From an uncultured virus (IMG/VR IMGVR_UViG_3300002220_000771) (taxonomy: Duplodnaviria > Heunggongvirae > Uroviricota > Caudoviricetes), in IMG/VR virus record IMGVR_UViG_3300002220_000771: DNA of 64,000 nt. One strand, given 5' to 3'. This document shows, piece by piece, positions 21,191 to 42,329 of the stretch. Under the pieces are notes generated by a model, which worked only from the letters and a program-made list of their open reading frames with translations, did not search any database and was not told where the DNA came from. A program made the translations under genes and the position numbers. Positions within the stretch are counted from its first letter, which is position 1. The number at the start of each line of letters is the position of its first letter.

Positions 21191-21265
21191 TGGTAGCCGG
21201 AGGAAGATTTGAACTTCCGTAGGACGATTATAAGTCGTCTATTCTATCCATTGAATTACCCGGCC
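21191..21265 (-). tRNA. tRNA-Ile(TAT)
   Basis: Cloverleaf; anticodon arm GACGA-CTTATAA-TCGTC; overlaps the HNH stop codon. Confidence 0.9.
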
Positions 21266-21804
21266 AATAAATTTCTTAATTCTTGATTACCACCATAATA
21301 AATTTTTGCTTGTTCATACATATTATTCCAATATTTTTCTGAATGTTTTATTCTATGACAATTAGAACATAACAATATACATTTATCAACTTCTTTTTTC
21401 ATTGATTCCCAACTTTTTATCCCATCACCTATTCCAAATTCTTTTTGATTTGGATCTGTATGATGAAATTCCATAACTGATATATTGCCTTCATTGCCTT
21501 CATATCCACAATTTTCACATTTACTTCCTTTATATTTTATAAGAGCTATTCTATATCTCAATCTATTAAGTTTTTGATGACAATATTGACAATAATAATC
21601 ACCATTATTTGTTTGCCTTTTACAAGAAACACATTCTATATTTTTTTCTCCTCCCGGTTCTCTGCCCCATCTTTTTTTATGTGTTTTCAAATCATATTTC
21701 TTCAACCAATGTCTAATTGAACCAAGTGACTTACTTGTAATTTTTGCAATATCTCTTATCGAATTACCTTCTTTTATATATTTTTCTAATATATCTCGTT
21801 CCAT
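21256..21804 (-). CDS. HNH homing endonuclease with N-terminal HTH
   Basis: CENCG..EFHH.DP..K..C.LLCSNCHR..H. Confidence 0.9.
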   Translation of the reverse strand: MERDILEKYIKEGNSIRDIAKITSKSLGSIRHWLKKYDLKTHKKRWGREPGGEKNIECVSCKRQTNNGDYYCQYCHQKLNRLRYRIALIKYKGSKCENCGYEGNEGNISVMEFHHTDPNQKEFGIGDGIKSWESMKKEVDKCILLCSNCHRIKHSEKYWNNMYEQAKIYYGGNQELRNLLAG

Positions 21805-21872
21805 GTTATATAAACTCCTATATTTTATAGTTATTTATATAATCTTAGCACAAATGTAAACTTATTTTTTTA

Positions 21873-21892
21873 TACCATTGAGCTACAGGACC
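21873..21892 (-). pseudogene. 5' tRNA remnant (probably Ile)
   Basis: GGTCCTGTAGCTCAATGGTA, then an abrupt AT-rich break. Confidence 0.7.
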
Positions 21893-21903
21893 ATTTCTTT
21901 TTA

Positions 21904-21979
21904 TGGTGCCGTGTCCCTGAATCGAACAGGATTCCGTGGTTCTTCAGACCACTGCAATCACCAGACTTGCTCACACGGC
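21904..21979 (-). tRNA. tRNA-Phe(GAA)
   Basis: Cloverleaf, CCA. Confidence 0.95.
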
Positions 21980-21987
21980 GTATGTTT

Positions 21988-22074
21988 TGGTGACGATGCT
22001 CGGAATCGAACCAAGTTGACCACAAAGGTGTATGATCTACAGTCATACCGGTCTCCATAGCCGTCTACATCGCC
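21988..22074 (-). tRNA. tRNA-Tyr(GTA)
   Basis: Cloverleaf, variable arm, CCA. Confidence 0.9.
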
Positions 22075-22091
22075 AAATATTCATATAAAAT

Positions 22092-22133
22092 AAAAAACCG
22101 CTTATCTCTTTTTACGGGGATAAGCGGTTTTTT
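22092..22133 (-). terminator. Attenuator terminator upstream of the tRNA array
   Basis: AACCGCTTATC-loop-GATAAGCGGTT plus T run. Confidence 0.9.
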
Positions 22134-22154
22134 GTCTTTTATGAATTACTATGC

Positions 22155-22247
22155 TTATTTTACTATATCCCCCTGTGCAGACCTATATTGATAGCCAAAT
22201 AACGGCCTGAGCGATATTTTGAATTGTGGTTTCTGTTTTAAGTTCAT
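22155..22247 (-). CDS. Leader peptide MNLKQKPQFKISLRPLFGYQYRSAQGDIVK (putative attenuator)
   Basis: GAGG RBS; lies between the promoter (TTGACA 22305-22300) and the terminator. Confidence 0.75.
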   Translation of the reverse strand: MNLKQKPQFKISLRPLFGYQYRSAQGDIVK

Positions 22248-22319
22248 TTCTATCTTCCTCTATGTTCTATTTATATAATTTATCATAAAATATTCAATTT
22301 GTCAAGTAAATAATTTAAA

Positions 22320-22565
22320 TTATTTTTCAGTTGTCCATACATCTTCTACATAAGGTTCTGTTTCTGTTTTTACATATGTATCAATTATATTTTGAATTTC
22401 ATATAAATATAATGCGGCACCATACGCATTACGCACATCTACTGGCATCTTTTTAAAAATAACTTCTGTAGTATATTTCTTTCTTTCTTCTAATGATAAA
22501 AACCACCATACAATTTTATTCCAAATTGAAAAGTAGTCTCTAAATCCCTTTTGTTTTGAAGACAT
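22320..22565 (-). CDS. Hypothetical protein
   Basis: ORF. Confidence 0.6.
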   Translation of the reverse strand: MSSKQKGFRDYFSIWNKIVWWFLSLEERKKYTTEVIFKKMPVDVRNAYGAALYLYEIQNIIDTYVKTETEPYVEDVWTTEK

Positions 22566-22769
22566 ATAAATTCTTTCTTTTTATTATTTATAAAATTTTT
22601 TCATTTACATAATTCCATACATCTTTACCATATAGTGTAGTCATTGTTGTTTCAAAAATATAATGTTCATAATCGTCATCTACATAACCATTTTCACAAT
22701 CATTTATATAGGATTCGCATAAATCTATTAATTCTTCTAATTTAATATTTTTTAATATTTTTGGTCTTT

Positions 22770-23309
22770 TCATAACATTTTTCCTTTTAACAGATTGGGG
22801 TGATCGCCGGAGCTTGAATCCGGTTTTTGGAGGCCTTTACAAGATGTATCTGTTTGTGAATGACAATTTGGACACAAAAATCTTATATTCTCTATTCTAT
22901 TATCATTACTTTTTCCGTTTATATGGTCTAATTCTAGTGTCATTTTCTTATTATTCCAAATACCTGTGTTTCCACATATTGAACACTTATATTCTAATAT
23001 TCCCTCTTTTATCAATCGTTTTTTTAGATGAAATCTACTAAAATGTGACTCTTCTACTAATATTTCAGCAATCGGTTTAGGTTTATTTATTTGAAGATTT
23101 TTACCTTTATTATGACCCGACCCTAGCTGAATATGACTGTAATCTATGTTATCTTCGTTCAATCTATTCTTCAAAATAAAAAAACTGCCGCCTTTTGTTG
23201 ACTTACCTATTTTAGTAGCAATTTCTTTTAAAGAAGATGATGATTTTACAATCTCTACCAATTCATCTTTTGGTGTAGTCCAGAATACACTCGTTCTTTT
23301 TCTTGCCAT
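22770..23309 (-). CDS. HNH homing endonuclease
   Basis: CSICG..LELDHING..NDNRIEN.RFLCPNCHSQT. Confidence 0.92.
   Translation of the reverse strand: MARKRTSVFWTTPKDELVEIVKSSSSLKEIATKIGKSTKGGSFFILKNRLNEDNIDYSHIQLGSGHNKGKNLQINKPKPIAEILVEESHFSRFHLKKRLIKEGILEYKCSICGNTGIWNNKKMTLELDHINGKSNDNRIENIRFLCPNCHSQTDTSCKGLQKPDSSSGDHPNLLKGKML
22796..22824 (-). pseudogene. 3' tRNA remnant (His-like) inside the HNH 3' end
   Basis: T-arm CCGGA-TTCAAGC-TCCGG then CGATCAC-C-CCA. Confidence 0.7.
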
Positions 23310-23383
23310 TTTATACCCTCCTAAATAGTATTATGTTCGTATGTTGTTATTTATATAATACTATTAAAAAGAGTATGCATTTT

Positions 23384-23459
23384 TGGGGTGTCCAGAGGAA
23401 GTCGAATCCTCTCTACGAAGGCCACAACTTCGTGTGCAAAACCGTTACACTTTGGACAC
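23384..23459 (-). tRNA. tRNA-His(GTG)
   Basis: Cloverleaf, C73 plus CCA; position -1 is T, not G. Confidence 0.92.
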
Positions 23460-23517
23460 AAAAATATTTAAGATATTTTTATCTTAAATATTTTTTTATC
23501 CAAAACAACTCCACGTA

Positions 23518-23790
23518 ATACCCATATACCACGACCACACTCTGATATCATCGGAGCAAACTCTACAATGATACGCTGTATTTGATGTCTAAGGTTTTAA
23601 TTCGTTTTACATATCGCTTCTATGGGATATAACCATCTATAATATATCGTCATACATTATAGTGACATCATATGCTGTATTTCCAATAGGAAAGGAATTG
23701 AACCTTTCTCCTCATATGACTTTATCGGTTACTAAAACTGGCTCATGTTCGTTTACCGTAAAGGAGCCTCATATAAGTACACACCAGTCT
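23518..23790 (-). ncRNA. Candidate multibranch ncRNA within the tRNA array
   Basis: Closing helix 23770-23780/23518-23528; several hairpins including a T-loop-like one; no sense ORF. Confidence 0.55.
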
Positions 23791-23796
23791 ATTTTT

Positions 23797-23870
23797 TGGC
23801 GGGCCTTGAAGGATTTGAACCCTCAATACTTGTTCTGGAGACAAGCGTGTTTCCGTTACACTAAAGACCC
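23797..23870 (-). tRNA. tRNA-Trp(CCA)
   Basis: Cloverleaf, GCCA. Confidence 0.95.
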
Positions 23871-23877
23871 AATTTTT

Positions 23878-24087
23878 CTATTTACGAGATTTTTTCAAAG
23901 CTTTTTTAGCCAGTATTTTTACAATACGTGCGTGTTTTTTGGCCTTGTTGATTTCTCTGCGACCTGCTGCACGATAACGAGCGCATTTGGTAAGATTTCT
24001 ACCATATTTTTTTGCGCCGGAACCCTTTTCTCTTCTCTTTTTCTTCCCACCTAATGAAGAGAGAACTTCTCGGACTGTTTTTCCCAT
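23878..24087 (-). CDS. Small very basic protein within the tRNA array
   Basis: Perfect AAGGAGGT RBS; K/R-rich. Confidence 0.8.
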   Translation of the reverse strand: MGKTVREVLSSLGGKKKRREKGSGAKKYGRNLTKCARYRAAGRREINKAKKHARIVKILAKKALKKSRK

Positions 24088-24170
24088 GATTTATCACCTC
24101 CTTATGTGTGTTTTGTCATGGGAAAACCTCCTTCAACAATATAATTCATAAAAATCTCCTTTTTATTTTA

Positions 24171-24244
24171 TGGTGGCTCTTACAGGTAATGATCCTGTTT
24201 CTATCGGTTATCGGCCGATTGCTCTACCTTTGAGCTAAAGAGCC
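24171..24244 (-). tRNA. tRNA-Ile(GAT)
   Basis: Cloverleaf, CCA. Confidence 0.92.
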
Positions 24245-24253
24245 ATTATGTTT

Positions 24254-24299
24254 TGGCTGCGGTAGCAGGATTCGAACCTGCAGTTAGATCTCCTTAACA
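24254..24299 (-). pseudogene. 3' half of a tRNA-Asn(GTT)
   Basis: Starts in the anticodon loop (TGTTAA); canonical T-arm and GCCA; 5' half absent. Confidence 0.85.
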
Positions 24300-24322
24300 T
24301 TTACATTACATCATTTATATTT

Positions 24323-24400
24323 TGGCTGTAGGAGTGGGGAACGATCCCACCTATTTCGGATTAACAGTCCGACCCGCCGCACCAAGCCCGGTGTCCTACA
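24323..24400 (-). tRNA. tRNA-Asn(GTT), divergent
   Basis: Cloverleaf, GCCA. Confidence 0.88.
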
Positions 24401-24445
24401 ATATCTTTTATGTATTTAACTTTTATTTTAAAAATATTCTTTTTC

Positions 24446-24517
24446 TGGTAGCGAGTCACAGTAACGATCTGTGCTATGGATAGTTATGAGCCATCCTTGG
24501 TCCCATGACCCCTCGCC
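24446..24517 (-). tRNA. tRNA-Met(CAT), elongator-like
   Basis: Cloverleaf with short D-loop. Confidence 0.8.
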
Positions 24518-24532
24518 ATATTTATTTTCAGT

Positions 24533-24654
24533 TGGTGGGGTGAGTATCTTATCGGTACAGAATTAATCTACTTTTTCACTCCATTATCTTATCCTACCTT
24601 CGTATATTACGTAATTCAAAAGGCTACTTTAGATAACTTCCCCGAAAACACCAC
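24533..24654 (-). ncRNA. CCA-terminated rod-like RNA candidate
   Basis: Spaced like a tRNA, ends ACCA, imperfect long terminal helix, no cloverleaf. Confidence 0.45.
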
Positions 24655-24660
24655 ATATTT

Positions 24661-24737
24661 TGGTAGCGGGTGGAGTTACCGCCACTCCTGATATCTACCT
24701 TATGAGAGTAGTGAGACACTTTTTCTCTATTCCCGCG
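24661..24737 (-). tRNA. tRNA-Met(CAT), initiator-like acceptor stem
   Basis: CGCGGG start with a 1:72 mismatch; lacks the GGG/CCC anticodon stem; odd T-loop. Confidence 0.75.
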
Positions 24738-24745
24738 ATATATTT

Positions 24746-24821
24746 TGGAGTGTCCGATGGGACTTGAACCCACATAAACCTATTTTGCAGACAGGCGCCT
24801 CTCCATTTCGGCAACGGACAC
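24746..24821 (-). tRNA. tRNA-Cys(GCA)
   Basis: Cloverleaf, U73, CCA. Confidence 0.95.
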
Positions 24822-24874
24822 TTACTTTCTATTATGTTTTATTTATATAATATTACCATATTTATTTTTATTTG

Positions 24875-26005
24875 TCAAGATATTTTTTTATTAATTTCTG
24901 GATATGGTGTTCTACTGATTAGAATTTCTTTACATCCTGTAACTTCTTTAATTTTCTCAATAAAATCATTTTCATTACCAAAATTTAAAATATTACCATT
25001 ATATGTAAGAGTATAACTGTTGAGTAAATCCAAGCATGTTATTGCTAATATAAAGTTATGATTTTTTATATACCCATCTTTATTTATAGCATATTTTATC
25101 AAATCTAAATCTAATATGGTTTTTCTAAATTCTCCTTGAATACCTGTATCAAAATTCTCCTCATATGGATTATTTTTTATATCATTTGGTATGTGCTCGT
25201 TAGTCATTGGGCCATTACCATGTCTTGTCTGATAAGCCCTTGTAACTAATATTATTTCAGGACTCTCTGTAAGTTCTAATATATTTTTTGTTCCAGTATT
25301 GGCCCTTGTAACATGAGGGAAAAATCCAAAATTTTGATCTAAAAGTAATCCTTGTGATCCTTCATAAATGTAATTATCATAAGTAAATTTATTATCGTTA
25401 TTCAGGAAATTATTTACAATTTTTATATTATCTATTTCTAATAAATGCTCACAAATATAAATGAAATCATTATGTATTGTATTATCTATTGTGATCCTTT
25501 TATTTTCATAATATTTTCGTATACAATTTAATTTTATTTTTAATATTGATGAGTGTAACAAATCAAATGCTGTTAAAGAATAATGATCTTCTTCTCGTTG
25601 AATTGTTTGACCTACACCAACTCCACAACTACCATGCTCTGTTTTAAAATCCAAAATTCTATTATAAATTTTTTCATATGGTGTTGTAATTGGACATTTA
25701 TCATCTATAATTAATTTAGGTATGGTATGGATTTTTCCTTCCAATACTGTTAATTCATTTATGATACCTACTGGATCAACTGTGCAGAATTTAGACCAGT
25801 ATGTGTCGCAACCATGAAGTGTTCCACTACCAAAATTAGAAAATACATGATCAATACCATTTTTTAAAACAACGTGGTGGCCAGCTTGTTGGCCACCACA
25901 AAATCGTATTATTAAATTTTTAGATGAATATGTAGATAAATAGCTTACAATTTTACCTTTACCTTCATCACCAAAACCACATCCTACAACTGCGACATGT
26001 TTCAT
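24875..26005 (-). CDS. purA: Adenylosuccinate synthetase-like protein
   Basis: GFGDEGKG, GGQQAGH, GSCGVG, EGSQG.LLD, TRAYQTRHGNGP. Confidence 0.85.
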   Translation of the reverse strand: MKHVAVVGCGFGDEGKGKIVSYLSTYSSKNLIIRFCGGQQAGHHVVLKNGIDHVFSNFGSGTLHGCDTYWSKFCTVDPVGIINELTVLEGKIHTIPKLIIDDKCPITTPYEKIYNRILDFKTEHGSCGVGVGQTIQREEDHYSLTAFDLLHSSILKIKLNCIRKYYENKRITIDNTIHNDFIYICEHLLEIDNIKIVNNFLNNDNKFTYDNYIYEGSQGLLLDQNFGFFPHVTRANTGTKNILELTESPEIILVTRAYQTRHGNGPMTNEHIPNDIKNNPYEENFDTGIQGEFRKTILDLDLIKYAINKDGYIKNHNFILAITCLDLLNSYTLTYNGNILNFGNENDFIEKIKEVTGCKEILISRTPYPEINKKIS

Positions 26006-26847
26006 AGCATCATCTCTTCTAATTCCTTGTTAAGTTTAATTGGCTTATTAATGGTATTTTTACATACGATATCAGAAATAATCTTAGATACATCTGTTTT
26101 TCTTTCAGCGACTATTAAGTTATCATGTAATAATTGTTTCCATCCATCAATGACTCTTTGACGACTTCCAGAAGCAGTTTCCTTAATATGGATATGATAA
26201 ACATTATATTTTTCAGATGCTTTTACTAATAAATCAGTTGCAGAAAAATCAGAATATTGACCTTCACCCATTAATTTCTCTAAAACTCTTTTTGGAACAG
26301 AGGGAAGAACGGGTTCATCACCTATAGTAAAAAGAAATCCTTTTTCTCCTCTTTTTTCAAAACAATCAATTTCTGTATGATAACCTGCGAAGTACCATGC
26401 TAACAAATAACTTTCACCATCATTACCGCCACCACATCCTTCAAGATAAATATCAGTTAGCCACTTATCAAGCAATTCATCACTTGATTCAAATTGCCCT
26501 ACTTGTAATGGCGAATTATCACATTCATGATCTCCAATTCCTAAAAATAAAACTTGTGGATCAGCAATACCATTTTTTATGATTGTATCCATAATAGATG
26601 GTAAACCTTCTTTAACAAGATAATGAGGAACTGAACCCATAGAGCCCGTTTCATCAAGAGCTATAATAATAGCTAATGAATTTGGATGTTCAGCAGAGTC
26701 TCTTGATTCTCTAATTCTTACACCAAATGGATTCATAGAACTATTAATATTTTTAGATCTAAAAATCTCAGAAGTCGAACCAGTAAAATATCCGGCAGTG
26801 GTTGCTCTAACATTTCTAGCGATAGAAGAATAACTTCCACTTCCCAT
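26002..26847 (-). CDS. vWA-like (MIDAS) protein
   Basis: DETGSMG, GIGD, GGGNDGESY, TIGDE. Confidence 0.8.
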   Translation of the reverse strand: MGSGSYSSIARNVRATTAGYFTGSTSEIFRSKNINSSMNPFGVRIRESRDSAEHPNSLAIIIALDETGSMGSVPHYLVKEGLPSIMDTIIKNGIADPQVLFLGIGDHECDNSPLQVGQFESSDELLDKWLTDIYLEGCGGGNDGESYLLAWYFAGYHTEIDCFEKRGEKGFLFTIGDEPVLPSVPKRVLEKLMGEGQYSDFSATDLLVKASEKYNVYHIHIKETASGSRQRVIDGWKQLLHDNLIVAERKTDVSKIISDIVCKNTINKPIKLNKELEEMML

Positions 26848-26848
26848 G

Positions 26849-27190
26849 TTATATACCCTCCCCAAATAAGTAGTTGTATCTTCTCTGCGCAATCTCTAAT
26901 TTAATAGATTCGTTACGAATTTTGACACCTAGATCAACATCTTTCTTTACATATTCAACGGGATCAAAATCGCTTGCAAGAGTAAGATTCATTGCGTTTG
27001 TAGGGGATAAATCGAGCATATTTTCCAAATCTCGCTCCATTCTTTTGATGGCCACCTGTAAATCTTCAATCTGTCTCTTATAAAGAAGCTGGGTGTCTTC
27101 TGCAATGGCGGTTGCACGATCATCACGAATTTGTTTATTATTTCTTTTTAAAGAAGTAATAAAAGCACCTCTATTTTCTACATTTTCCAT
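26849..27190 (-). CDS. Coiled-coil hypothetical protein, first gene of the vWA-PurA trio
   Basis: ORF with AAGGAG RBS and promoter. Confidence 0.8.
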   Translation of the reverse strand: MENVENRGAFITSLKRNNKQIRDDRATAIAEDTQLLYKRQIEDLQVAIKRMERDLENMLDLSPTNAMNLTLASDFDPVEYVKKDVDLGVKIRNESIKLEIAQRRYNYLFGEGI

Positions 27191-27426
27191 AACATTTTCT
27201 CCTTTTGTTATTTTTAATTATTATACAACATTTTTAGTTATTTGTCAAGTTTTTTGTAAATAATATATTTCCATTTATATGCCCATTATTATCAACTATT
27301 GGATCTCTATACCAACATTTTTCTATTTTATCTATTACTAAACAGGTTCTTTTAAAGATCCAGAATTTTTTTTTCATGTACGGACTATTACATTTACAAT
27401 TAGATTCTATATGTTTGCAATTTATT

Positions 27427-27783
27427 CTATATTTCATTTTGTATTATTTCCTCATTATCATCTATATTTTCATAACACATTTTTACACGATCCCATAAAA
27501 GTGAAAACTTAAATCCCCATTCATCTGCTGTCTTTGATACACCGACATCTGGATGATTTTCTGGATATGTTAAAGTGTATTTATGTTCATTATTTAGTTC
27601 AATATCTCCTTTTCCTAAAAATAAACAATATCCTGAATTATATTCATCAAATTTTTCATTGTCTATTTGGCATCTGTGTCTCCAAAATGGGCATGGAATT
27701 ATTTTATATCCTTGTCTACCATCATCAAGTTTACCGTCATATGTATAACAGTAATCACCAGAGGGTATTATACTTGCATCCAT
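27427..27783 (-). CDS. Cys-rich hypothetical phage protein
   Basis: IP.G.YCY..CP.W..GYC..L..LLWD.VK.C. Confidence 0.7.
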   Translation of the reverse strand: MDASIIPSGDYCYTYDGKLDDGRQGYKIIPCPFWRHRCQIDNEKFDEYNSGYCLFLGKGDIELNNEHKYTLTYPENHPDVGVSKTADEWGFKFSLLWDRVKMCYENIDDNEEIIQNEI

Positions 27784-27927
27784 TATTTTATTCTACCTCT
27801 TTTTTCCAATTTTTTTCACGTTTATAAGGTGAACCTTTACCTTTCTTAGCATCTTTTATTCTATTAGTTCTAAGTGGTATAGGAATTCTTCTTTTTATTG
27901 GATTTTCAAATTCTTCATATATCTTTT

Positions 27928-28200
27928 TCATATTTTTAATATTTTCTTAATTTCTTCATCAAATAAACTAATTTCATAACAATGATCTTTATTAACACAG
28001 CACTTTTCTGTAGGACCAGATATTATCAGATATACATCGTCATTATCAATAATTTTTTTAACTTCCAATATACCTAAAAAATCAGAATTATATGCACGTG
28101 AAGAATTTGGACGAGAACATATTGATGGAAATGATACCCATTCTCCAGTTGATCGTATAATAGCTTCTTCAATTCTTGGTAATAATCTTATCTTTTTCAT
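27928..28200 (-). CDS. Hypothetical protein, tandem duplicate
   Basis: Near-identical N-terminus to 28197..28463. Confidence 0.85.
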   Translation of the reverse strand: MKKIRLLPRIEEAIIRSTGEWVSFPSICSRPNSSRAYNSDFLGILEVKKIIDNDDVYLIISGPTEKCCVNKDHCYEISLFDEEIKKILKI

Positions 28201-28463
28201 ATTTTCAATATTTTCTTTATATCATCTTCAAATAAAGTTACTTCATAACAATGATCTTTATTAACAGTACAACCTCTTACAGGACCCGATAATATAAAGT
28301 ATTTATAATTATAATGTTTATCATTTTTAACTTCTAATATACCTAAAAAATCAGAATTATATGATTCTGATCCTACAATAGAATGGATCGATGGAAACGA
28401 TACCCATTCTCCAGTTGATCGTATAATAGCCTCTTCAATTCTTGGTAATAATCTTATTTTCAT
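28197..28463 (-). CDS. Hypothetical protein, tandem duplicate
   Basis: KIRLLPRIEEAIIRSTGEWVSFPSI shared. Confidence 0.85.
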   Translation of the reverse strand: MKIRLLPRIEEAIIRSTGEWVSFPSIHSIVGSESYNSDFLGILEVKNDKHYNYKYFILSGPVRGCTVNKDHCYEVTLFEDDIKKILKI

Positions 28464-30307: not shown

Positions 30308-30417
30308 AAAGTTTTCCCCTCATTATTTTTGATACTATATCATAAAATAATTTATTTGTCAATATATTTTAAGCAAAAAAATACTATATTCTCTTTTTAA
30401 ATATAGTATTTTTTATT

Positions 30418-33173: not shown

Positions 33174-33231
33174 ATCTACTCCTAAAACTCTTTGATATAT
33201 GTATTTATAATAATAATTTTTTAATCAAAGA

Positions 33232-34924: not shown

Positions 34925-34957
34925 TTAAATCATCCTAATGTTTTCTTCCTGTTATAT

Positions 34958-35296: not shown

Positions 35297-38035
35297 AAAA
35301 ACACTCCATATTTTTCTTTTTATAATATCAAATATGGAGTGTTTTGTCAAGATAATTTTTTAATTTTTTTCTTATCATTCTTGAAATATCTTTTTGTCTA
35401 TTTTTTCCTTTATTTTTCTTCATATGTTTTTATTCAAAATCTGTAAATGTAAGCCTGTTACCATTTTCATCAAATAAATTTAAATCATAATTATTATCTT
35501 CATCACTATCTTCATCACTATCTTGATACATATTTTCTTTTAATAAATATTTACTAAAATTCAGTGATATGGATTGCTTTAAAAAATCAACGGCATCTGC
35601 ACCACGATATATAGCATATAATAGTATTATAAGAATATGTGATAATGAATAAATTTCTTTTCTATTTAATCTTTTAGCTTCTGTTAAAAGAATTTTATAA
35701 GTTCTTAATATTTCATTATATGTTTCCTTTTCAAGATCGGACATTTCAATAATATTATTAGCAAATTCATGTTCAAGTTTTGTTAGTATATTTTTTAAAT
35801 CTTTAAATACTCTATCAGTAATCATTATATTTTCTCCTTTTCTGATGCTTTTTTTATTGAAATTTCATATTCTTCCACATCATTTGAATTAAAGCCAATT
35901 TTATTTTTAATAGTTCTATTAATAAGCCATGCCATATCATACATTTCATTTAATAAAGGTTGTCCTTTTGGATGAAAATCAACACAATTAGTTATAGGAT
36001 CAATTTTATTTGGTAAAATTCTTTTTTGATCCCAATCTTCCCTACACCAACCATATTCATTACCATATCTTGTTGAACGTAATCTAAAAAATCTACATTT
36101 TGAACATAAGCCATAATTACTTTTATTAGGCGAACTTATCGTATCTGCTAAAATATTACATTTTGCATCATAAATATCATCCATGTTCATCCTTTCATTG
36201 ATTCCTTTTAAATTTAAATACATATTAATCCACTTTAAGAACATACCATACCCAATCCATTCCTAAATCTTTAGGTTTTTTATCAATATATAATAATGTA
36301 AAATTTCTTATTTTACCATTTTTCATTATTATTATTCCTGATTGGCCTTCTTTTATCGTATCTAATGACGGTATGATTTTATCAGTTTTAATATTTTTAC
36401 TATTTACTCTAACGTAACATGGTATTCTATCTTTTTCAAGACCTTTTTTTATAAACCATCTTTTAATCTTTTCAATAATATTCATATAATATCTCCTAAA
36501 GATGATTTATATTCTTTGAAGAATATCTATTATTTAGAGTTTTTATTCATTATCATCCTCACATTCATCATATCCCATAGGATCTTCATCTAAATAATCT
36601 TCTTCTACAAATATATCAGAACTTAAAAGTTTTTCTAATTTAAGTAGATTATTTCTGTGGAAATATCCTTCTTTAATAAATTCATTTAAAAGTCTTTTTA
36701 ATGAAGTTACTGTTGAATTTGGTAAACATTTTTTTGCTTCTTTTGGTATACCAGATAATTTCATATCTGTTATGAAATATATTGCATGATTTGTGTTTGC
36801 TATTTTAGGTTCTTTATTATTTTTTTTCCCACCAGATAAGCAAATAGTTTTGGTATAATTTCCAGAATATACTAACCATTTAAATCCTTTTTGCTTATCT
36901 TCTGTAATTGTTGAAAATATAAGTTTATTACCATTCTCAAATTCAATATAAGGAACACCCGTTATTGAATAGCATAATTTCATTTTGGTTTAAGCCTCTC
37001 TAATCTTTAAGATATTGGATAGGGTATCTTCATATATTATTTCATATTTTTTTCCAACTATTAGTTTTTTATGATAAATAAAGTGTATTCTCCCCTTATC
37101 ACAATTTTTAGTTTCAAAAATTACATCACCAACAATATAATAGTTTCTATCACCGTCTAAACTGTTAGTAATTTCATTTATTTCAACTAAGATAGTGTCT
37201 TTCATTTATATTCTCATTATTTTATTATTTTTATCAAGGTAAGCTATTTCCTTTTCCCAAATTCTTGATGACCAAGATTTTGTCTGGTTGATAAATTTTC
37301 CAATAGGAACTTTTAGATTTAATGGAACATGACCGTCTTCTATATGATTATGTTCCATTAAATCTGTTTCTAAATTTAAACGCTTCCAAATAGTTATTTT
37401 TTTCATTTTCATTTATATATCCTTTTAAGAAGTAATTTTTATATTTGTAAAATTTCATTTATTTCCTTTTTAGCCCTATGACTATCAATTTTATTTAAAA
37501 GAATTTGATAATGTTCTTTATTTTCAGCACCAACATGCCATTCATTAATCTCATTCGGATCAGTTACATCATAATTTTTCCAATCATAAATACTAATACA
37601 ACTTAGATTATCATCAATGTTTAATTCCCATTCCCATCTAACTTTATTATCAGCAGATGGTGTATCATATGTTGGTTTACCGAACATACTAACTAAGTCC
37701 TCATATGTTATATGTAAGTATCCTACTAAATGTCCCATATTCTTCTCCTTTTATTCACCATCGTCTTTGTATAGAATGATGGAATCATTATCTATCAAAA
37801 CGGGGCCAAATTCTTTTATCAAATACTGTAAATCTTCTAATGTCTCAATCGTATAATTTATATCCGACTCTTCTACTACAGAAAATATTGAATGCCTATA
37901 TATTTTATGAGAGAAAGTAAAACCCAACTTTTCTAATTTCTCTATTTTTTTACTATCTGTGTAAACATGAATATCTGTAAATAATTTATATACCATTTCA
38001 TTTTACCTTTTTGTTTTAATATACCATAAATTGTA

Positions 38036-38452
38036 TTATTTGTCAAAGTTTATTTTTTCAATATTACCGGCTGGCCAAATTATTATTATAGGTTTTTTTA
38101 TTTTTCTTGCATATCTTAATGCATGCCAAGTTCCACTTCTGATTACTTCGTATTCTTTACATGGTATTCCTATAACAATATCAGAATTATTAATAATGTC
38201 ACAATTTCGTATTTTATATTCTTTTTCTGATAAAAGTTTATTAGCTTTACAAAAAGCTCTATATTTAGGATTGATGGGTGGATGAATTATAATATCACAA
38301 TATCCACTAACTATATTATGAGCATCCATATCTGCCCCAATACAGTCTCCATGATGAAATTCTGCAACATTTAAAGAATATATTATTTCTTTAAATGTTG
38401 CAGCTTGTGCTTCAGTCATACCTTGTCGTGTTCCAGTAAATCCTATTTTCAT
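38036..38452 (-). CDS. SLOG/DprA-like nucleotide-binding protein
   Basis: IGFTGTR, HHGDCIGAD, RN..I, SGTW...RYA. Confidence 0.75.
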   Translation of the reverse strand: MKIGFTGTRQGMTEAQAATFKEIIYSLNVAEFHHGDCIGADMDAHNIVSGYCDIIIHPPINPKYRAFCKANKLLSEKEYKIRNCDIINNSDIVIGIPCKEYEVIRSGTWHALRYARKIKKPIIIIWPAGNIEKINFDK

Positions 38453-38696
38453 AATCTTAAAATATTATCAATTTCTTCTTTAAATGGTGATATTTTCATA
38501 AAAGACATAGCATAAAACATAACATCGGCAAGTTCATAAGCTTCAGTATAACTTAAATTTAATCTTTCCTTTATAGATCTTGCAAACATAATATGATTAT
38601 TATTTTTTAAATATTCATGTTCATATGATGTTAGTGATTCTATCAAACTAGGAATAATTATTTTCATAATATTATATAAATTATTTTAATAAGAAA

Positions 38697-39005
38697 AATA
38701 AAAGGGTGTGGGATATAACATCACACACCCCAAATAATGGGTTCTAATGTATTTCAACATTAGACAGGCTCAGAAAAATGAATTAAGAGATTGGTGTGTC
38801 TCTCATTTCTTCAACGCCCCACAATAAAATCTAATTTCACAGTCACCACACTGGATTTCAATATTATTGAGGTATCAGAAAGGTATTATCTGATATACCC
38901 ATATAAGAAAATTAGGATTTATTGCAGGATGCCTGTCTTATCACCCAATTTTCTAAATCAGTTCCGGCCCATCTTTTTGGGAACTTACAGATATTCCTGA
39001 TTTCT
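38697..39005 (-). ncRNA. Candidate pseudoknotted ncRNA (about 310 nt)
   Basis: TTGACT-17-TATAAT promoter; multiple stems; 8-bp loop pairing; terminator 38704-38730. Confidence 0.65.
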
Positions 39006-39175
39006 AAAAGAATTATAACATATAATAAATTAAAAGTCAAGAATTTTTTATATAATAAAGGCATCCTTTTACTATTGTTTCATTTTACAACCGGATGCCT
39101 TTGGTGACGGCTCTTTTATTAGACCGAGCCACCCTATATTTATTTATAAAAAATAATATATTATAAATTATTTTA

Positions 39176-39526
39176 TTAATATCCACCATCACCATACAGT
39201 ACTTTTATATTTTCTTTAAAATCAGACTGTATTATTCCTCTTTCACACAACATTCTATTTATAGAATCATCGTCATCAGTTGAAACATCTATAATATAAA
39301 TAATACCACCATTTTCAATATATTTTAAACTTTCAAGGACAATTTCTTCATCATACCAATCATCAAAATATTTTTTTGCTTCCTCAATATTTCTTAAAAT
39401 ATTTGAAACATATGGATATAAATCAATTTCTAGTGTCATGGTCAATTTTTGATTACCAATTCTTGAATCACCTATAATGAATGATGTACTTGAACTATTA
39501 GTAATAAAATCACTTTTTATTTTCAT
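39176..39526 (-). CDS. MKxRxDFVTNSSSxS-family acidic protein
   Basis: MKIKSDFITNSSSTS N-terminus. Confidence 0.85.
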   Translation of the reverse strand: MKIKSDFITNSSSTSFIIGDSRIGNQKLTMTLEIDLYPYVSNILRNIEEAKKYFDDWYDEEIVLESLKYIENGGIIYIIDVSTDDDDSINRMLCERGIIQSDFKENIKVLYGDGGY

Positions 39527-39547
39527 TATTTTATTCCTTTTTATAAA

Positions 39548-39889
39548 TTATCCATCATAATATTCACCATATTCTAAATTAATTTCATTATACGTAACAT
39601 CAATACCAATTTTTTTCAACTGTTCTGCGGTATACATTTTAAATTCTTTAAGTGTTTGATTTTCTTTCATTTTATCAGGAGAAACGCCGACTATAATAGA
39701 ATCATCAAGATCCATTACTTCTATTTCTTTATCTAATTCATATATAAAATCAGTTATATAAAAATCATCATCTTCTTCATTAAGATTTACTCTTAACATT
39801 TCTTTTAATTCATCTTTATCAAAACATTTACCATACATACAATAACTTGTACTACTTGAATTTGTTACAAAATCACATTTAATTTTCAT
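39548..39889 (-). CDS. MKxRxDFVTNSSSxS-family acidic protein
   Basis: MKIKCDFVTNSSSTS N-terminus. Confidence 0.85.
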   Translation of the reverse strand: MKIKCDFVTNSSSTSYCMYGKCFDKDELKEMLRVNLNEEDDDFYITDFIYELDKEIEVMDLDDSIIVGVSPDKMKENQTLKEFKMYTAEQLKKIGIDVTYNEINLEYGEYYDG

Positions 39890-39890
39890 T

Positions 39891-40070
39891 TTAATTATCT
39901 CCTTCTGTTATTTTTAATTTACTTTTAAATCTAAAAGGATATGCTTTTCCTTTTTTATTTCTCCATTTAGAAGCTTGTCTGGTAGTAGGTTCTATACCTG
40001 CAATTTTACAAGCTTCCTGAAAAATTGGTTCATTTACAAATTCCCTATTTATAATATCATATTTTTTCAT
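39891..40070 (-). CDS. 59-aa hypothetical protein (not in the ORF track)
   Basis: AAGGA RBS; F..AC..AGI.PT.RQASKWR..KG.A. Confidence 0.7.
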   Translation of the reverse strand: MKKYDIINREFVNEPIFQEACKIAGIEPTTRQASKWRNKKGKAYPFRFKSKLKITEGDN

Positions 40071-40238
40071 TATAATATTTCCTTATATTATTTCCTTTTG
40101 ATTACTATTATATCTTAATTTGATATAATTGTAAATACATTAAAAAAGAAATAATTCAATTATTTAAAAAAATAAATTAAATATTTTAGGGAATTTACGG
40201 AGAGTGGCGAAAAATAAGTAAAAAATAAAAAATAAAAC

Positions 40239-40267
40239 TTGACAATTTTTTAACAATATGTTATAAA
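40239..40267 (+). promoter_or_regulatory. Sigma70-type promoter overlapping TATAAATA, driving the right tRNA array
   Basis: TTGACA-17-TATAAA. Confidence 0.85.
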
Positions 40268-40274
40268 TATATAC

Positions 40275-40334
40275 ATGAAGATAAGAAAACGATTTATAAA
40301 AGTTGAGAGTACAGAAGGTACCAAATTTAGGTAA
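40275..40334 (+). CDS. Leaderless leader peptide MKIRKRFIKVESTEGTKFR (putative attenuator)
   Basis: ATG at the predicted +1; stop codon lies inside the antiterminator strand. Confidence 0.7.
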   Translation: MKIRKRFIKVESTEGTKFR

Positions 40335-40355
40335 CGGGGGAAGTGTCTGCGAAAG

Positions 40356-40387
40356 ACCCTGTTACCAGTAGGTAACAGGGTTTTTTT
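40356..40387 (+). terminator. Attenuator terminator upstream of the tRNA array
   Basis: CCCTGTTACC-AGTA-GGTAACAGGG-TTTTTTT. Confidence 0.95.
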
Positions 40388-40402
40388 ATTATTGAAAAAT
40401 AT

Positions 40403-40476
40403 AGTGCATTAGTTTAGTGATAGAACCAAAGACTTTCAATCTTTAGGCACCGGTTTGATTCCGGTATGCACTACCA
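40403..40476 (+). tRNA. tRNA-Glu(TTC)
   Basis: Cloverleaf, CCA. Confidence 0.88.
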
Positions 40477-40483
40477 AATATTA

Positions 40484-40558
40484 GCCGATGTAGTTTAGCA
40501 GGTAAAACATATCTTTGGTAAGGATAAAATATGGGTTCAAGTCCCATCGTTGGCTCCA
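40484..40558 (+). tRNA. tRNA-Thr(GGT)
   Basis: Cloverleaf, CCA. Confidence 0.93.
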
Positions 40559-40574
40559 GAATATAGAGGTTAAA

Positions 40575-41258
40575 ATGATTATAGTAATTGGTGATATACA
40601 TGGAGATTTTGGGTATGTGAATAAGTTTTTAAACTCACATAATGAAGTTACAACTGTATTACAGTGTGGTGATTTCGGATATTGGCCTAAACAACATAAT
40701 AAATCTTATTTAAATGAATGTGGAAAAATAAAACATTGGGATCAATATTCATTATATAATAAGGATGTAAAATTTCATTGGTGTGATGGAAATCATGAGG
40801 ATTTTCAATCACTTAAAGAATGTAATTATAAACCTGATATGAAAAATGATAATATTATATATCAGTCAAGAGGTTCATATATAACACTTTTAAATGGCAA
40901 AAACGTATTATTTATAGGTGGGGCATGTTCTGTAGATAAAAAATATAGAACACAAAATATTGATTGGTTTCCAGAAGAAATAATTACACAATATGATATT
41001 AATAATTTACCTAATGTTAATATTGATATTGTTATAAGTCATACCGCTCCAATGGAGTTTCAGGTATTTGATGATAATAAATTTCTTCACGATCCATCTA
41101 GAGATGTTTTATCGGTTATATTAAATAAATATAAACCTATGAAATGGTATTTTGGGCACTTCCATACTTATAAAAAAGGTAGAGCATATGGTTGTGAATG
41201 GGTATCATTAGCATATGCTGGAAGTGGATTAAGATGGTGGATTGAATTAGGAAAATAA
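40575..41258 (+). CDS. Calcineurin-like metallophosphoesterase
   Basis: GDIHG, GDFG, GNHE, SH, GHFH. Confidence 0.92.
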   Translation: MIIVIGDIHGDFGYVNKFLNSHNEVTTVLQCGDFGYWPKQHNKSYLNECGKIKHWDQYSLYNKDVKFHWCDGNHEDFQSLKECNYKPDMKNDNIIYQSRGSYITLLNGKNVLFIGGACSVDKKYRTQNIDWFPEEIITQYDINNLPNVNIDIVISHTAPMEFQVFDDNKFLHDPSRDVLSVILNKYKPMKWYFGHFHTYKKGRAYGCEWVSLAYAGSGLRWWIELGK

Positions 41259-41451
41259 TTTACTTGACATATAAATATAAATGTGTTAATATAAATATAT
41301 GAAGAAAAAGAAAAAAATTTTTTATTGTGGTTGTGGAAAATTATTTTATAGTGGTCGTTCAATACCGTTAAAAGAATGTATGTATTGTTGTGATCATAAG
41401 AAAGAATTTCATAATTGTTATGATTTTCTTGAACATAGAGAATGTAATTTA

Positions 41452-41533
41452 ATCCCTGTATCGGAAGTGGCTACGAACCACCGCATTAAACCGTAATGGA
41501 CGCATGAGAGTTCAAGTCTCTCCAGGGATTCCA
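41452..41533 (+). tRNA. Atypical tRNA-Arg(ACG) with displaced D-arm
   Basis: Same architecture and conserved TAAACCGTAATGGA segment as 20795..20876. Confidence 0.7.
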
Positions 41534-41545
41534 ATATAAGATACA

Positions 41546-41575
41546 GCCGGTTAGTTCAATGGGAGAACATTGGTT
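41546..41575 (+). pseudogene. 5' tRNA remnant (probably Val)
   Basis: GCCGGTT-AGTTCAATGGGAGAAC-ATTGGTT, breaks at the anticodon loop. Confidence 0.75.
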
Positions 41576-41643
41576 AAAATATTTTTAAAATTTCTCATAA
41601 AATCTGATTGCTTCTTTATAAATAATATTATAAGGAGATAATT

Positions 41644-42252
41644 ATGAGAAATATTAGTGAAGAATCAAAAGAAAAAATTAAACTCGGCGCATTAAAGGGT
41701 ATAGAGAGCCAAAAAAGGAAACGATTAGATGAGTATAATAAATTTTTGAAGTATTGTTTAGAATGTGAAAATGTATTGCCTTATAAGAAACGGCATAATA
41801 AATTTTGCAATCATTCATGTTCTGCTGATTTCAATAATAGAGAAAAAGGCAAAATTGTCAATCCAAAAAGTAGTGTTTGTAGATATTGTGAGCAAGCGAT
41901 TTCCGGTAGGAAAAAATATTGTAACAGTAAATGTCAAAATGAATATGAATATATAGAGTACATCAAAAAATGGTTATCAAATGATTTTTCTGGTGTGAGA
42001 GGAAAATATGATATTTCTCGTTATGTAAAACGATATATATTTGAAAAATTTGATAATAAATGTGTTAAATGTGGTTGGAATAAAATTAATTTGAAGACAA
42101 ATAAAACTCCTTTACATATACATCATATTGATGGCTGTTATAAAAATTGTTCGGAAGATAATTTAATTTTATTATGTCCTAATTGTCATTCATTGACAGA
42201 TAATTATGGTTCATTAAATAAAGGTAATGGTAGAGAGTATAATATATTATAA
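41644..42252 (+). CDS. HNH homing endonuclease with zinc-finger repeats
   Basis: KFC..SC repeats; LHIHHIDG..N...NL.LLCPNCHSLT. Confidence 0.92.
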   Translation: MRNISEESKEKIKLGALKGIESQKRKRLDEYNKFLKYCLECENVLPYKKRHNKFCNHSCSADFNNREKGKIVNPKSSVCRYCEQAISGRKKYCNSKCQNEYEYIEYIKKWLSNDFSGVRGKYDISRYVKRYIFEKFDNKCVKCGWNKINLKTNKTPLHIHHIDGCYKNCSEDNLILLCPNCHSLTDNYGSLNKGNGREYNIL

Positions 42253-42255
42253 TTT

Positions 42256-42329
42256 GGGGAATTGGACTAAAAGTAAGGCGTTACGTTTACACCGTAAAGA
42301 AAGAGGAGCATTACCTCTATTCCCTACCA
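42256..42329 (+). tRNA. tRNA-Val(TAC), divergent
   Basis: Cloverleaf, non-canonical D and T loops, CCA. Confidence 0.85.

What the first reader, a model, noticed from the sequence alone, without database searches (positions are those of the whole stretch)
21191..42329. HNH endonucleases travel with a replacement tRNA and leave a broken tRNA remnant
Seen three times. (a) 5' remnant 21873-21892, HNH, then complete Ile-TAT overlapping the HNH stop. (b) Complete His 23384-23459, HNH, then a His-like 3' remnant 22796-22824 absorbed into the ORF end. (c) 5' remnant 41546-41575 broken at the anticodon loop, HNH, then a divergent Val-TAC 3 nt after the stop. Established: free-standing homing endonucleases occur in T-even tRNA regions (SegB). 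Inference: these are intron-less mobile cassettes that cut a tRNA gene and restore function with a sequence-diverged, cleavage-immune copy. Remnant identities for Ile and Val are inferred from body sequence only.
Basis: partly seen in the sequence, partly recalled or inferred. Interest (0 to 1): 0.8.

Follow-up and report, generated by a model that had tools for sequence, protein, structure and literature searches.

The report
Homing nucleases carrying spare tRNA genes
In this phage three selfish HNH nuclease genes sit inside broken tRNA genes, each beside an intact tRNA gene of the same kind, which suggests a way for such elements to invade a useful gene without an intron.

Summary

- **Setting.** The window is an AT-rich (28.8% GC) phage contig with two tRNA arrays.
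- **The three genes.** Three intact-looking HNH endonuclease genes lie in the arrays. Each is flanked by a truncated tRNA and a complete tRNA of the same isotype.
- **Case b is decisive.** A 669-bp block (22836-23504) sits exactly between anticodon positions 35 and 36 of a resident tRNA-His gene. The block holds a hairpin, a second tRNA-His and the HNH gene. The two orphan halves (23505-23538 and 22796-22835) join in silico to a perfect 74-nt tRNA-His. A related metagenome contig has that gene uninterrupted, with the same upstream flank.
- **Cases a and c.** Each keeps only a 5' fragment. By exact matches in other viral contigs these are Ile-type and Val(TAC)-type, the same isotypes as the tRNAs downstream of the HNH genes.
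- **Elsewhere.** The same layout recurs in other viral contigs (L018, L079, L037). No group I or II intron signal was found in the case b insert.
- **Known and new.** HNH and GIY-YIG nucleases in phage tRNA clusters are known (T5 F-Tfl, T4 SegB). My searches found no description of a spare-gene cassette inside a split target.
- **Untested.** Whether the nucleases cut the old alleles and spare the new ones.

New variant of a known kind; interest about 0.65.

The parts
21873..21892 (-). case a: 5' fragment (acceptor strand plus D-arm start, 20 nt) of a former tRNA, Ile-type
   Evidence: Read. Exact 20-mer in 8 IMG/VR contigs: Ile-TAT x3, Ile-GAT, Met/CAT, Phe, and 2 fragments. With its 5' flank it matches the start of L028's tRNA-Ile(TAT) at 27 of 30.
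21832..21839 (-). TATAAATA motif 28 nt upstream of the HNH(a) start (promoter-like; inference)
   Evidence: The motif is not enriched window-wide (37 seen, 28.2 +/- 5.5 expected).
21256..21804 (-). HNH(a), 182 aa, N-terminal HTH-like region and C-terminal HNH core
   Evidence: Pfam PF01844 23.7 bits against a cut-off of 21.4. phrog_2255 E 2.5e-25.
21191..21265 (-). case a: complete tRNA-Ile(TAT); its first 10 nt hold the HNH(a) stop codon
   Evidence: ARAGORN. Rfam tRNA 62.1 bits.
23505..23538 (-). case b: 5' half of the resident tRNA-His, positions 1-35, ending GT of anticodon GTG
   Evidence: Homologous to L028's intact tRNA-His and its upstream flank (87.5% over 56 nt).
22836..23504 (-). 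case b: the 669-bp inserted block
   Evidence: coordinates. ARAGORN -i reports the same 669-nt interruption.
23462..23493 (-). 13-bp AT-rich hairpin followed by a T run, at the left end of the block
   Evidence: Read. Hairpin-type weak Rfam hits only.
23384..23459 (-). case b: complete second tRNA-His(GTG) inside the block
   Evidence: ARAGORN. Not listed by Rfam at E up to 10.
23348..23355 (-). TATAAATA motif 39 nt upstream of the HNH(b) start
22770..23309 (-). HNH(b), 179 aa. The last 21 codons and the stop are read from the old tRNA's 3' half and 26 nt beyond it
   Evidence: Pfam HNH 29.4 bits. phrog_10822 E 1.8e-47. 48% identity over 77 aa to the TflIV-like HNH of T4-like phage ACG-C40.
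22796..22835 (-). case b: 3' half of the resident tRNA-His, positions 36-76 with CCA
   Evidence: Its last 11 nt (acceptor 3' strand, discriminator, CCA) are identical to L028's tRNA-His.
41546..41575 (+). case c: 5' fragment (acceptor, D-arm, anticodon-stem 5' strand, first loop base) of a former tRNA, probably Val(TAC)
   Evidence: The first 23 nt equal the 5' end of tRNA-Val(TAC) in L022. The same tRNA was found again in a MAG contig, which is not independent. Panel ranking: Val-TAC, Val-GAC, Trp.
41617..41624 (+). TATAAATA motif 20 nt upstream of the HNH(c) start
41644..42252 (+). HNH(c), 202 aa, zinc-ribbon-rich N-terminal part and C-terminal HNH core
   Evidence: Pfam HNH 18.0 bits, below the cut-off of 21.4. 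phrog_1271 E 2.7e-18. 46% identity to the L028 homologue. 125 relatives in IMG/VR.
42256..42329 (+). case c: divergent tRNA-Val(TAC) with non-canonical D- and T-loops
   Evidence: Rfam tRNA 43.4 bits. ARAGORN calls it only at -ps95.

Best explanation
Three free-standing HNH homing-endonuclease cassettes have invaded resident tRNA genes of the phage's tRNA arrays. Each cassette travels with a complete tRNA gene of the same isotype but a different sequence.

**Proposed mechanism**
1. During co-infection the nuclease cuts the cassette-free allele of its cognate tRNA gene, near the anticodon loop (b, c) or the D-loop (a).
2. The break is repaired from the cassette-bearing genome. This copies in the nuclease gene together with its spare tRNA.
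3. The resident gene is destroyed. The spare copy keeps the isoacceptor available. Because it differs in the stems around the cut site, it is not a target.

**How the three footprints arise**
- In case b both repair junctions lay in the tRNA halves, so the old gene survives as two exact halves.
- In cases a and c only the upstream junction lies in the old gene. The downstream part was replaced or lost.

**Shown:** the anatomy, the isotype match, the uninterrupted allele in a relative, and the absence of intron signatures.
**Inferred:** cleavage specificity, immunity of the spare allele, the repair route, and function of the spare tRNAs.
For: **Case b**
- The 34-nt and 40-nt orphan halves lie 669 bp apart. 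They join to a 74-nt tRNA-His(GTG) with full cloverleaf. ARAGORN -i finds the same split as the only long-interruption call in the window.
- The block contains a complete tRNA-His and the HNH ORF.
- Metagenome contig L028 has the uninterrupted gene. It shares the acceptor 3' end and an upstream flank 87.5% identical over 56 nt, and neighbouring Phe at 88.5% and Gln at 79%.

**Isotype match**
- His/His in case b.
- The fragment of (a) is Ile-type and the downstream tRNA is Ile(TAT).
- The fragment of (c) is best matched by Val(TAC) and the downstream tRNA is Val(TAC).

**Same layout elsewhere**
- L018: an Ile(TAT) 5' fragment up to the anticodon loop, a non-HNH nuclease-like ORF, then Ile(TAT).
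- L079: a Val(GAC)-like 5' fragment, HNH, then Val(GAC).
- L037: a 5' fragment 21 of 26 identical to the downstream Thr(GGT).

**Family behaviour**
- In the HNH(c) family, 53 of 59 clusters have a tRNA within 1.2 kb. In 30 of 59 a tRNA abuts the stop codon.
- HNH(a) relatives: 5 of 5 loci lie in tRNA arrays.
- HNH(b) homologues lie in tRNA arrays of ACG-C40, Bop, GodonK and mistaenkt.
- Enterococcus phage iF6 is the only one of 31 Schiekvirus records with the HNH between Phe and Thr. Its adjoining Thr allele differs from EFDG1's.

**Nuclease integrity**
- All three keep the two CxxC pairs and the H..N..H residues (read).

**Precedent**
- SegB cuts tRNA genes and co-converts neighbours (PMC2330249, passages).
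Against: - No enzymology, and no read-level evidence of presence/absence polymorphism of the cassettes.
- Only one relative (L028) shows the uninterrupted His gene.
- The Val identity of (c) rests on one distinct tRNA sequence.
- The 20-mer of (a) also starts a Phe and a CAT-anticodon tRNA.
- In the HNH(c) family survey, 58 of 59 clusters showed no 5' fragment by the automatic test. Remnants are therefore the exception.
- tRNA decay and replacement also occur with no nuclease present: window 24250-24314 next to Asn, and L015, where a fragment is followed by Ile(TAT) with no ORF between them.
- L028's own fragment upstream of its HNH(c)-like gene cannot be assigned to the downstream Thr(GGT).
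- The new tRNA-His is not reported by the Rfam tRNA model. The new Val has aberrant D- and T-loops, so function of the spare copies is unproven.
Confidence: 0.6

Rival explanations
1. General turnover of tRNA genes in the arrays (duplication, recombination between phages, decay) produced the fragments and the second copies. The HNH genes merely settle in inter-tRNA spacers and are bystanders.
For: - A decayed tRNA lies at 24250-24314 directly after tRNA-Asn with no HNH.
- L015 has a 5' fragment followed after 20 nt by a full Ile(TAT), with no ORF between them.
- Most HNH(c)-family members sit cleanly between tRNAs without fragments.
- Further odd tRNA-like elements occur in the arrays.
Against: - In case b the HNH gene and the second His lie together inside one block that interrupts the old gene at a single point with no base lost.
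- In cases a and c the fragment ends where the AT-rich leader of the HNH gene begins.
- The isotype matches in all three cases and in L018 and L079.
Confidence: 0.2
2. Case b is an intron. The 669-nt block is spliced out of the tRNA-His precursor, so the split gene is still functional and the internal tRNA is incidental.
For: - The insertion is exact and lies in the anticodon loop, the classical site of bacterial tRNA group I introns.
- The 5' part ends in U.
- Relatives of HNH(c) lie about 50 nt downstream of tRNA genes that do carry group I introns: L096, L103 and L104 at 64.6-64.9 bits, L086 at 55 bits, RF00028.
Against: - No RF00028 or group II hit in the block at E up to 10, in a 5.5-kb search and in an 811-nt search.
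- The last base of the block is A, not the terminal G of group I introns (read; the rule is recalled).
- The block holds a full tRNA gene, and its ORF runs across the 3' junction.
Confidence: 0.07
3. Assembly artefact: a chimeric metagenome contig joined tRNA-containing reads wrongly.
For: - The window derives from a metagenome.
- tRNA arrays are repeat-like.
Against: - An IMG/VR record is 100% identical over both regions.
- The same architecture is seen in independent contigs (L018, L079, L037).
Confidence: 0.03

Closest known systems
T4 SegB (GIY-YIG free-standing homing endonuclease in the tRNA gene cluster)
   Same: - A free-standing nuclease gene inside a phage tRNA array.
- It cuts within tRNA genes of relatives that lack it and is inherited together with flanking tRNA genes (PMC2330249, abstract and passages).
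- It drives rearrangement of tRNA loci (PMC13096335, passages).
   Different: - A different nuclease fold.
- It recognises the T-psi-C motif rather than the anticodon or D region.
- It lies between genes. No split target and no dedicated same-isotype spare copy are described in the passages I read.
T5 F-TflI / F-TflII / F-TflIV HNH endonucleases and TflIV-like genes of T4-like phages
   Same: - HNH enzymes encoded in the tRNA gene region (PMC2330249 and PMC10644984 passages).
- HNH(b) shares 48% identity over its HNH core with a gene annotated as TflIV-like, next to the tRNA array of phage ACG-C40.
   Different: - Domain order differs. The HNH core is C-terminal in the window's protein and N-terminal in the ACG-C40 protein.
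- I could not read the original 2004 paper, so I do not know their cleavage sites.
- No insertion inside a tRNA gene with a spare copy was found in print by my searches.
Group I introns in bacterial and phage tRNA anticodon loops, with intron-encoded or neighbouring homing endonucleases (collaborative homing; recalled)
   Same: - The same insertion site class (anticodon loop).
- The same problem is solved: keeping the invaded gene's function.
- HNH(c) relatives lie beside intron-bearing tRNA genes.
   Different: - No ribozyme is present here.
- Function would be kept by a second gene copy, not by splicing.
Integrase-borne elements that insert into tRNA genes and carry a replacement 3' segment (recalled)
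   Same: - They target a tRNA gene.
- They restore it with element-borne sequence and leave a displaced remnant.
   Different: - They use a tyrosine recombinase and att sites, and replace only the 3' part.
- Here a nuclease and a whole extra gene are involved, and no integrase lies nearby.
Mitochondrial free-standing endonuclease ORFs that insert into a gene and bring a replacement gene end, leaving the old end as a pseudogene (recalled, e.g. Allomyces atp6)
   Same: An endonuclease gene plus a replacement copy of the disrupted sequence, with the displaced remnant left behind.
   Different: - Protein-coding targets and in-frame fusions, in organelles.
- Here the targets are whole tRNA genes in phage arrays.

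Membership tests
HNH (His-Me finger) endonuclease | Match to the HNH profile above the curated cut-off | tested here: met
   (a) scores 23.7 bits and (b) 29.4 bits against a cut-off of 21.4. (c) scores 18.0 bits, below the cut-off. All three hit PHROG HNH families at E 2.5e-25, 1.8e-47 and 2.7e-18.
HNH (His-Me finger) endonuclease | Catalytic H..N..H residues and the two CxxC zinc pairs are present | tested here: met
   Read from the alignments. The roles assigned to the residues are recalled knowledge.
Homing endonuclease gene (mobile) | Present in some genomes and absent in others that are otherwise homologous at the locus | tested here: met
   The case b block is absent from the homologous tRNA-His of L028, which is a single relative. 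The HNH(c)-like gene is present in 1 of 31 Schiekvirus records at the Phe/Thr site.
Homing endonuclease gene (mobile) | The enzyme cuts the empty allele at or near the insertion site and not the occupied or immune allele | not testable with these tools
   Needs protein and DNA substrates.
Group I intron | Match to the catalytic core model RF00028 | tested here: not met
   No hit at E up to 10. The same model scores 55-65 bits on L086, L096, L103 and L104.
Group I intron | Terminal G of the intron and U at the end of the 5' exon (recalled rule) | tested here: not met
   The 5' part ends in T, but the block ends in A. The boundaries cannot be shifted (read).
tRNA (the three spare copies) | Cloverleaf recognised by tRNA finders | tested here: inconclusive
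   - Ile: ARAGORN and Rfam 62.1 bits.
- Val: Rfam 43.4 bits; ARAGORN only at a relaxed threshold.
- His: ARAGORN yes, Rfam no hit.

tRNA (the three spare copies) | Expressed, processed and aminoacylated | not testable with these tools
   No RNA data were laid.

The most novel reading that the evidence does not exclude
A general strategy that could be called spare-part homing.

- Free-standing nucleases colonise short, useful RNA genes by carrying a cleavage-resistant replacement gene instead of an intron.
- tRNA genes of large phages would be the main arena.
- The process would be a major driver of tRNA allele replacement and of the odd D- and T-loops seen in these arrays.
- Three states would be alternative outcomes of one arms race around the anticodon loop: a nuclease beside a resistant allele, a nuclease plus spare gene inside a split target, and a nuclease beside an intron-bearing tRNA.
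Probability: 0.4. Interest if true: 0.8.

Novelty: new variant of a known kind. Interest (0 to 1): 0.65.

Why it matters
- **A third route for homing elements.** Homing endonuclease genes are thought to survive inside genes only when an intron or intein removes them from the product. A cassette that instead brings a spare copy of a 75-nt gene would be a third solution.
- **Phage tRNA arrays.** It would explain why these arrays are mosaics of diverged alleles and fragments.
- **Testable pairs.** It gives three natural nuclease/target/immune-allele trios that can be tested directly in vitro.
- **Annotation.** Split tRNA genes and unannotated nuclease ORFs in tRNA arrays are easily missed, as in phage iF6.

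Tried and rejected
- **Close relatives of the phage.** Single-protein scans with the metallophosphatase and an 81-aa ORF found none.
- **Exact scans.** A 20-mer from the 3' half of case b and a 19-mer from the His 5' half with its flank each found nothing in IMG/VR.
- **Phage collection.** blastn of both arrays against the phage collection gave only short tRNA or HNH matches.
- **Reads.** Whether the cassettes are polymorphic in the samples therefore stays open. The run listing alone is not evidence.
- **Bacterial and archaeal genomes.** The scan with part of fragment (c) only re-found the L022 sequence in a MAG, which is not independent.
- **ARAGORN long-intron calls.** Most calls in the other loci are chimeras of neighbouring tRNAs. 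The drawings for L098, L037 and L048 are poor. I use L037 only through direct alignment. L039, L048 and L098 are leads only.
- **TATAAATA.** As a promoter it is suggestive only, because the motif is not enriched in the window.
- **Earlier notes.** Earlier notes of this scan held nothing for this genome.


Full report
**What the window is.** The window has 28.8% G+C. It is 100% identical to a 61-kb IMG/VR fragment over both regions studied. PHROG matches include NAD-dependent DNA ligase, RNA ligase, clamp loader and helicases, so it is part of a large phage genome. ARAGORN finds 23 tRNA genes in two arrays: 19669-24821 on the minus strand and 40403-44118 on the plus strand. All encode CCA, and within runs they are 6-13 nt apart. 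Rfam adds a tRNA at 42256-42326 at 43.4 bits.

**The three nuclease genes.** The ORFs are 21256-21804(-), 22770-23309(-) and 41644-42252(+).
- On Pfam HNH they score 23.7, 29.4 and 18.0 bits against a cut-off of 21.4.
- They match PHROG HNH families at E 2.5e-25, 1.8e-47 and 2.7e-18.
- Each has its HNH core at the C-terminal end with the zinc cysteines and H..N..H residues in place.
- A TATAAATA motif lies 20-39 nt upstream of each start. The motif is not enriched in the window as a whole: 37 seen against 28.2 +/- 5.5 expected.

**Case b.** Comparison with a metagenome contig fetched through the tRNA-Phe sequence (L028) changed the picture.
- L028 has an intact tRNA-His directly upstream of its Phe.
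- The window holds the first 34 nt of a homologous gene at 23538-23505(-), with the same upstream flank (87.5% over 56 nt). It holds the last 40 nt at 22835-22796(-), whose last 11 nt are identical to L028's.
- Joined by coordinates in a script, the two pieces give a 74-nt sequence that ARAGORN calls tRNA-His(GTG). All four stems pair and the anticodon loop has 7 nt.
- ARAGORN run with long interruptions allowed finds the same split. It is the only such call in the window.
- The interruption is 669 bp (22836-23504), between anticodon positions 35 and 36, with no base lost.
- In order it contains a 13-bp hairpin with a T run, a complete second tRNA-His (23384-23459), an AT-rich leader and the HNH gene. 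The reading frame continues for 21 codons through the old 3' half.
- The old and new genes share the anticodon loop but differ in 3 of 5 anticodon-stem pairs and elsewhere.
- No group I or group II intron model matches the block at E up to 10, in a 5.5-kb search or in an 811-nt search. The block ends in A, not G.

I therefore read it as an insertion that inactivates the old gene, not as an intron.

**Case a.**
- The 20-nt fragment 21873-21892(-) begins 11 nt after tRNA-Phe, where the next tRNA of the array should begin. It stops in the D-loop.
- The exact 20-mer occurs in 8 IMG/VR contigs. In 6 it is the 5' end of a called tRNA: Ile(TAT) three times, Ile(GAT), a CAT-anticodon tRNA and Phe.
- With 7 nt of flank it matches the start of L028's Ile(TAT) at 27 of 30.
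- The isotype is therefore Ile-type, most likely Ile(TAT), but not proven.
- The HNH gene follows, and its stop codon lies inside the complete tRNA-Ile(TAT) 21191-21265.

**Case c.**
- The fragment 41546-41575 begins 12 nt after a tRNA-like element and ends after the first base of the anticodon loop.
- Its first 23 nt have one exact IMG/VR hit, the 5' end of a tRNA-Val(TAC). A scan of bacterial and archaeal genomes only re-found that same sequence.
- In a panel of 397 distinct tRNAs from all loci fetched, the best matches are Val(TAC), then Val(GAC) and Trp.
- The HNH gene follows. Three nt after its stop comes a tRNA-Val(TAC) with unusual D- and T-loops.

**Divergence of old and new copies.** In both a and c the fragment resembles its own downstream tRNA poorly, at ranks 126 and 319 of about 397. 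The two copies share the isotype but not a recent duplication.

**The same layout elsewhere.**
- Two of the eight contigs holding the 20-mer of case a carry it as a fragment again.
  - L018 has the fragment up to the anticodon loop, a 223-aa ORF with weak PHROG endonuclease matches and no HNH, then tRNA-Ile(TAT).
  - L015 has the fragment followed after 20 nt by a full Ile(TAT) and no ORF.
- A profile scan for HNH(c) relatives returned 80 loci. Three were dropped: L051 has no stop in the locus, and the ORF call failed for L104 and L105. The remaining 77 ORFs form 59 clusters at 90% identity.
  - 53 of 59 have a tRNA within 1.2 kb.
  - 30 of 59 have a tRNA abutting the stop codon (-20 to +12 nt), 16 on the same strand.
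  - An automatic search for 5' fragments upstream found one clear case, L079: a Val(GAC)-like fragment, HNH, then Val(GAC).
  - Reading L037 added another: a 5' fragment 21 of 26 identical to the downstream Thr(GGT) over its first 26 positions.
  - L039, L048 and L098 are unverified leads.
  - Remnants are thus uncommon in the family.
- L028 itself has an HNH(a)-like gene between Phe and Gln. It also has a generic 5' fragment before an HNH(c)-like gene and Thr(GGT). The isotype of that fragment cannot be assigned.
- Cultured phages show the same tight association.
  - An unannotated HNH(c)-like ORF in Enterococcus phage iF6 lies between Phe and Thr(TGT), with its stop inside the tRNA. It is the only one of 31 matching Schiekvirus records to hold the whole stretch.
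  - The iF6 Thr allele differs from EFDG1's throughout the D-arm, anticodon stem and T-arm, while the downstream flank is identical. It equals EFP01's.
  - HNH(b) homologues sit in the tRNA arrays of ACG-C40, Bop, GodonK and mistaenkt.
- In 2 of 59 HNH(c) clusters (L096 with its near-copies, and L086) the gene lies about 50 nt downstream of a tRNA that carries a group I intron, RF00028 at 55-65 bits. None of the other 57 representatives had such a hit.

**Mechanism.**
- The anatomy fits homing. The nuclease cuts the empty allele in or near the anticodon or D region, and repair from the occupied genome copies the cassette.
- In case b both flanks of the cassette are the halves of the target. 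Ordinary homologous repair would therefore reproduce exactly this structure in a recipient such as L028.
- In cases a and c the upstream junction is in the old gene, but the downstream part of the old gene is gone. This fits repair that used homology further downstream, or later deletion.
- All of this is inference. So is the idea that the spare alleles escape cutting because their stems differ.

**Counter-evidence.** It is listed under the best explanation. The main items are the lack of any enzymology or read-level polymorphism, the single relative, the rarity of remnants in the family, tRNA decay without nucleases in the same window (24250-24314), and doubts about the spare His and Val genes.

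**What is known.**
- SegB of T4 is a free-standing GIY-YIG nuclease in the tRNA cluster. It cuts tRNA genes at the T-psi-C motif and is co-inherited with neighbouring tRNA genes (PMC2330249, abstract and passages). A 2026 paper shows that it drives amplification of a tRNA-Tyr/segB unit (PMC13096335, passages).
- T5 encodes the HNH enzymes F-TflI, II and IV in its tRNA region (mentioned in PMC2330249 and PMC10644984). I could not see the original 2004 paper.
- HNH genes next to long bacterial tRNA arrays are noted in PMC8421152 (passages).
- Five full-text searches and passages of PMC10448857 and PMC3185647 turned up no description of a nuclease-plus-spare-tRNA cassette inside a split tRNA gene. 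The library covers only open-licence PMC and bioRxiv texts.
- The parallels with tRNA group I introns, collaborative homing, tRNA-targeting integrases and mitochondrial endonuclease insertions that bring a replacement gene end are recalled, not taken from calls.

**Verdict.** It is a new variant of a known kind, namely free-standing homing endonucleases of phage tRNA clusters.

Noticed in passing
window 20257-20454 (-): An RNase P RNA-like element between tRNA-Arg and tRNA-Leu. It matches Rfam RF00373 at 39.9 bits in the 5.5-kb search and at 29.5 bits (E 5.9e-07) in a 331-nt search. Both are far below the gathering score of 84. The alignment keeps several conserved-region-like stretches.
   Followed up: partly
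window 41452-41533 (+) and 20795-20876 (-): Two paralogous 82-nt tRNA-like elements (82% identity over 51 nt). Each has a good acceptor stem, T-arm and CCA but an aberrant core. Neither tRNA finder calls them. The first overlaps the end of ORF 41299-41496.
   Followed up: partly
window 24250-24314 (-): A decayed tRNA directly after tRNA-Asn. The T-arm and acceptor 3' strand are intact and the 5' acceptor strand is lost. No nuclease gene lies nearby. The isotype is ambiguous, Asn or Met-like.
   Followed up: partly
window 24445-24526 (-) and 24660-24735 (-); also 20878-21016 (-), 23670-23796 (-), 24533-24657 (-): Cloverleaf-like sequences with CAT anticodon loops, and longer structured stretches, that neither ARAGORN nor Rfam reports. 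The arrays hold more tRNA-like genes than the 24 called.
   Followed up: no
window tRNAs Gln 21106-21182, Ile-GAT 24171-24244, Asn 24323-24400, Gly-GCC 42675-42748; L028 Glu, Gln, His: T-loops read ATCGTAA, ATCATTA or ATCGTTC instead of the usual TTCRANY. Positions 54 and 58 look swapped. This would remove the motif that SegB is reported to recognise (PMC2330249 passages).
   Followed up: no
L019, L020, L021, L018, L015, L039: tRNA-Ile(TAT) genes of 93-96 nt with a long variable arm occur in several viral contigs.
   Followed up: no
L096 858-1052, L103 890-1084, L104 975-1169, L086 816-1021: Group I introns (RF00028, 55-65 bits) inside tRNA-Arg(TCT) or tRNA-Gln(TTG) genes, immediately upstream of HNH(c)-family ORFs.
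   Followed up: partly
L039 826-1970: Nested tRNA fragments surround a tRNA-Ile(TAT) and an antisense HNH(c)-family gene. The outer fragments have a perfect 7-bp acceptor pairing across 1074 nt, but the anticodon loop they form is odd.
   Followed up: partly
window 24875-26005 (-): ORF matching phrog_1211, an adenylosuccinate-synthetase-like family (E 1.4e-55). It could bear on whether the phage modifies its purines.
   Followed up: no
L023 (Enterococcus phage iF6, MT909815.1 39630-43106): The record leaves a 182-aa HNH ORF unannotated. It lists its tRNAs on the strand opposite to the one ARAGORN calls.
   Followed up: yes
L015 1210-1368 (-); L033, L034, L067, L071, L072, L077, L080: A skipping-rope RNA match lies next to the Ile(TAT) of L015. 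tmRNA genes lie close to several HNH(c)-family genes.
   Followed up: no
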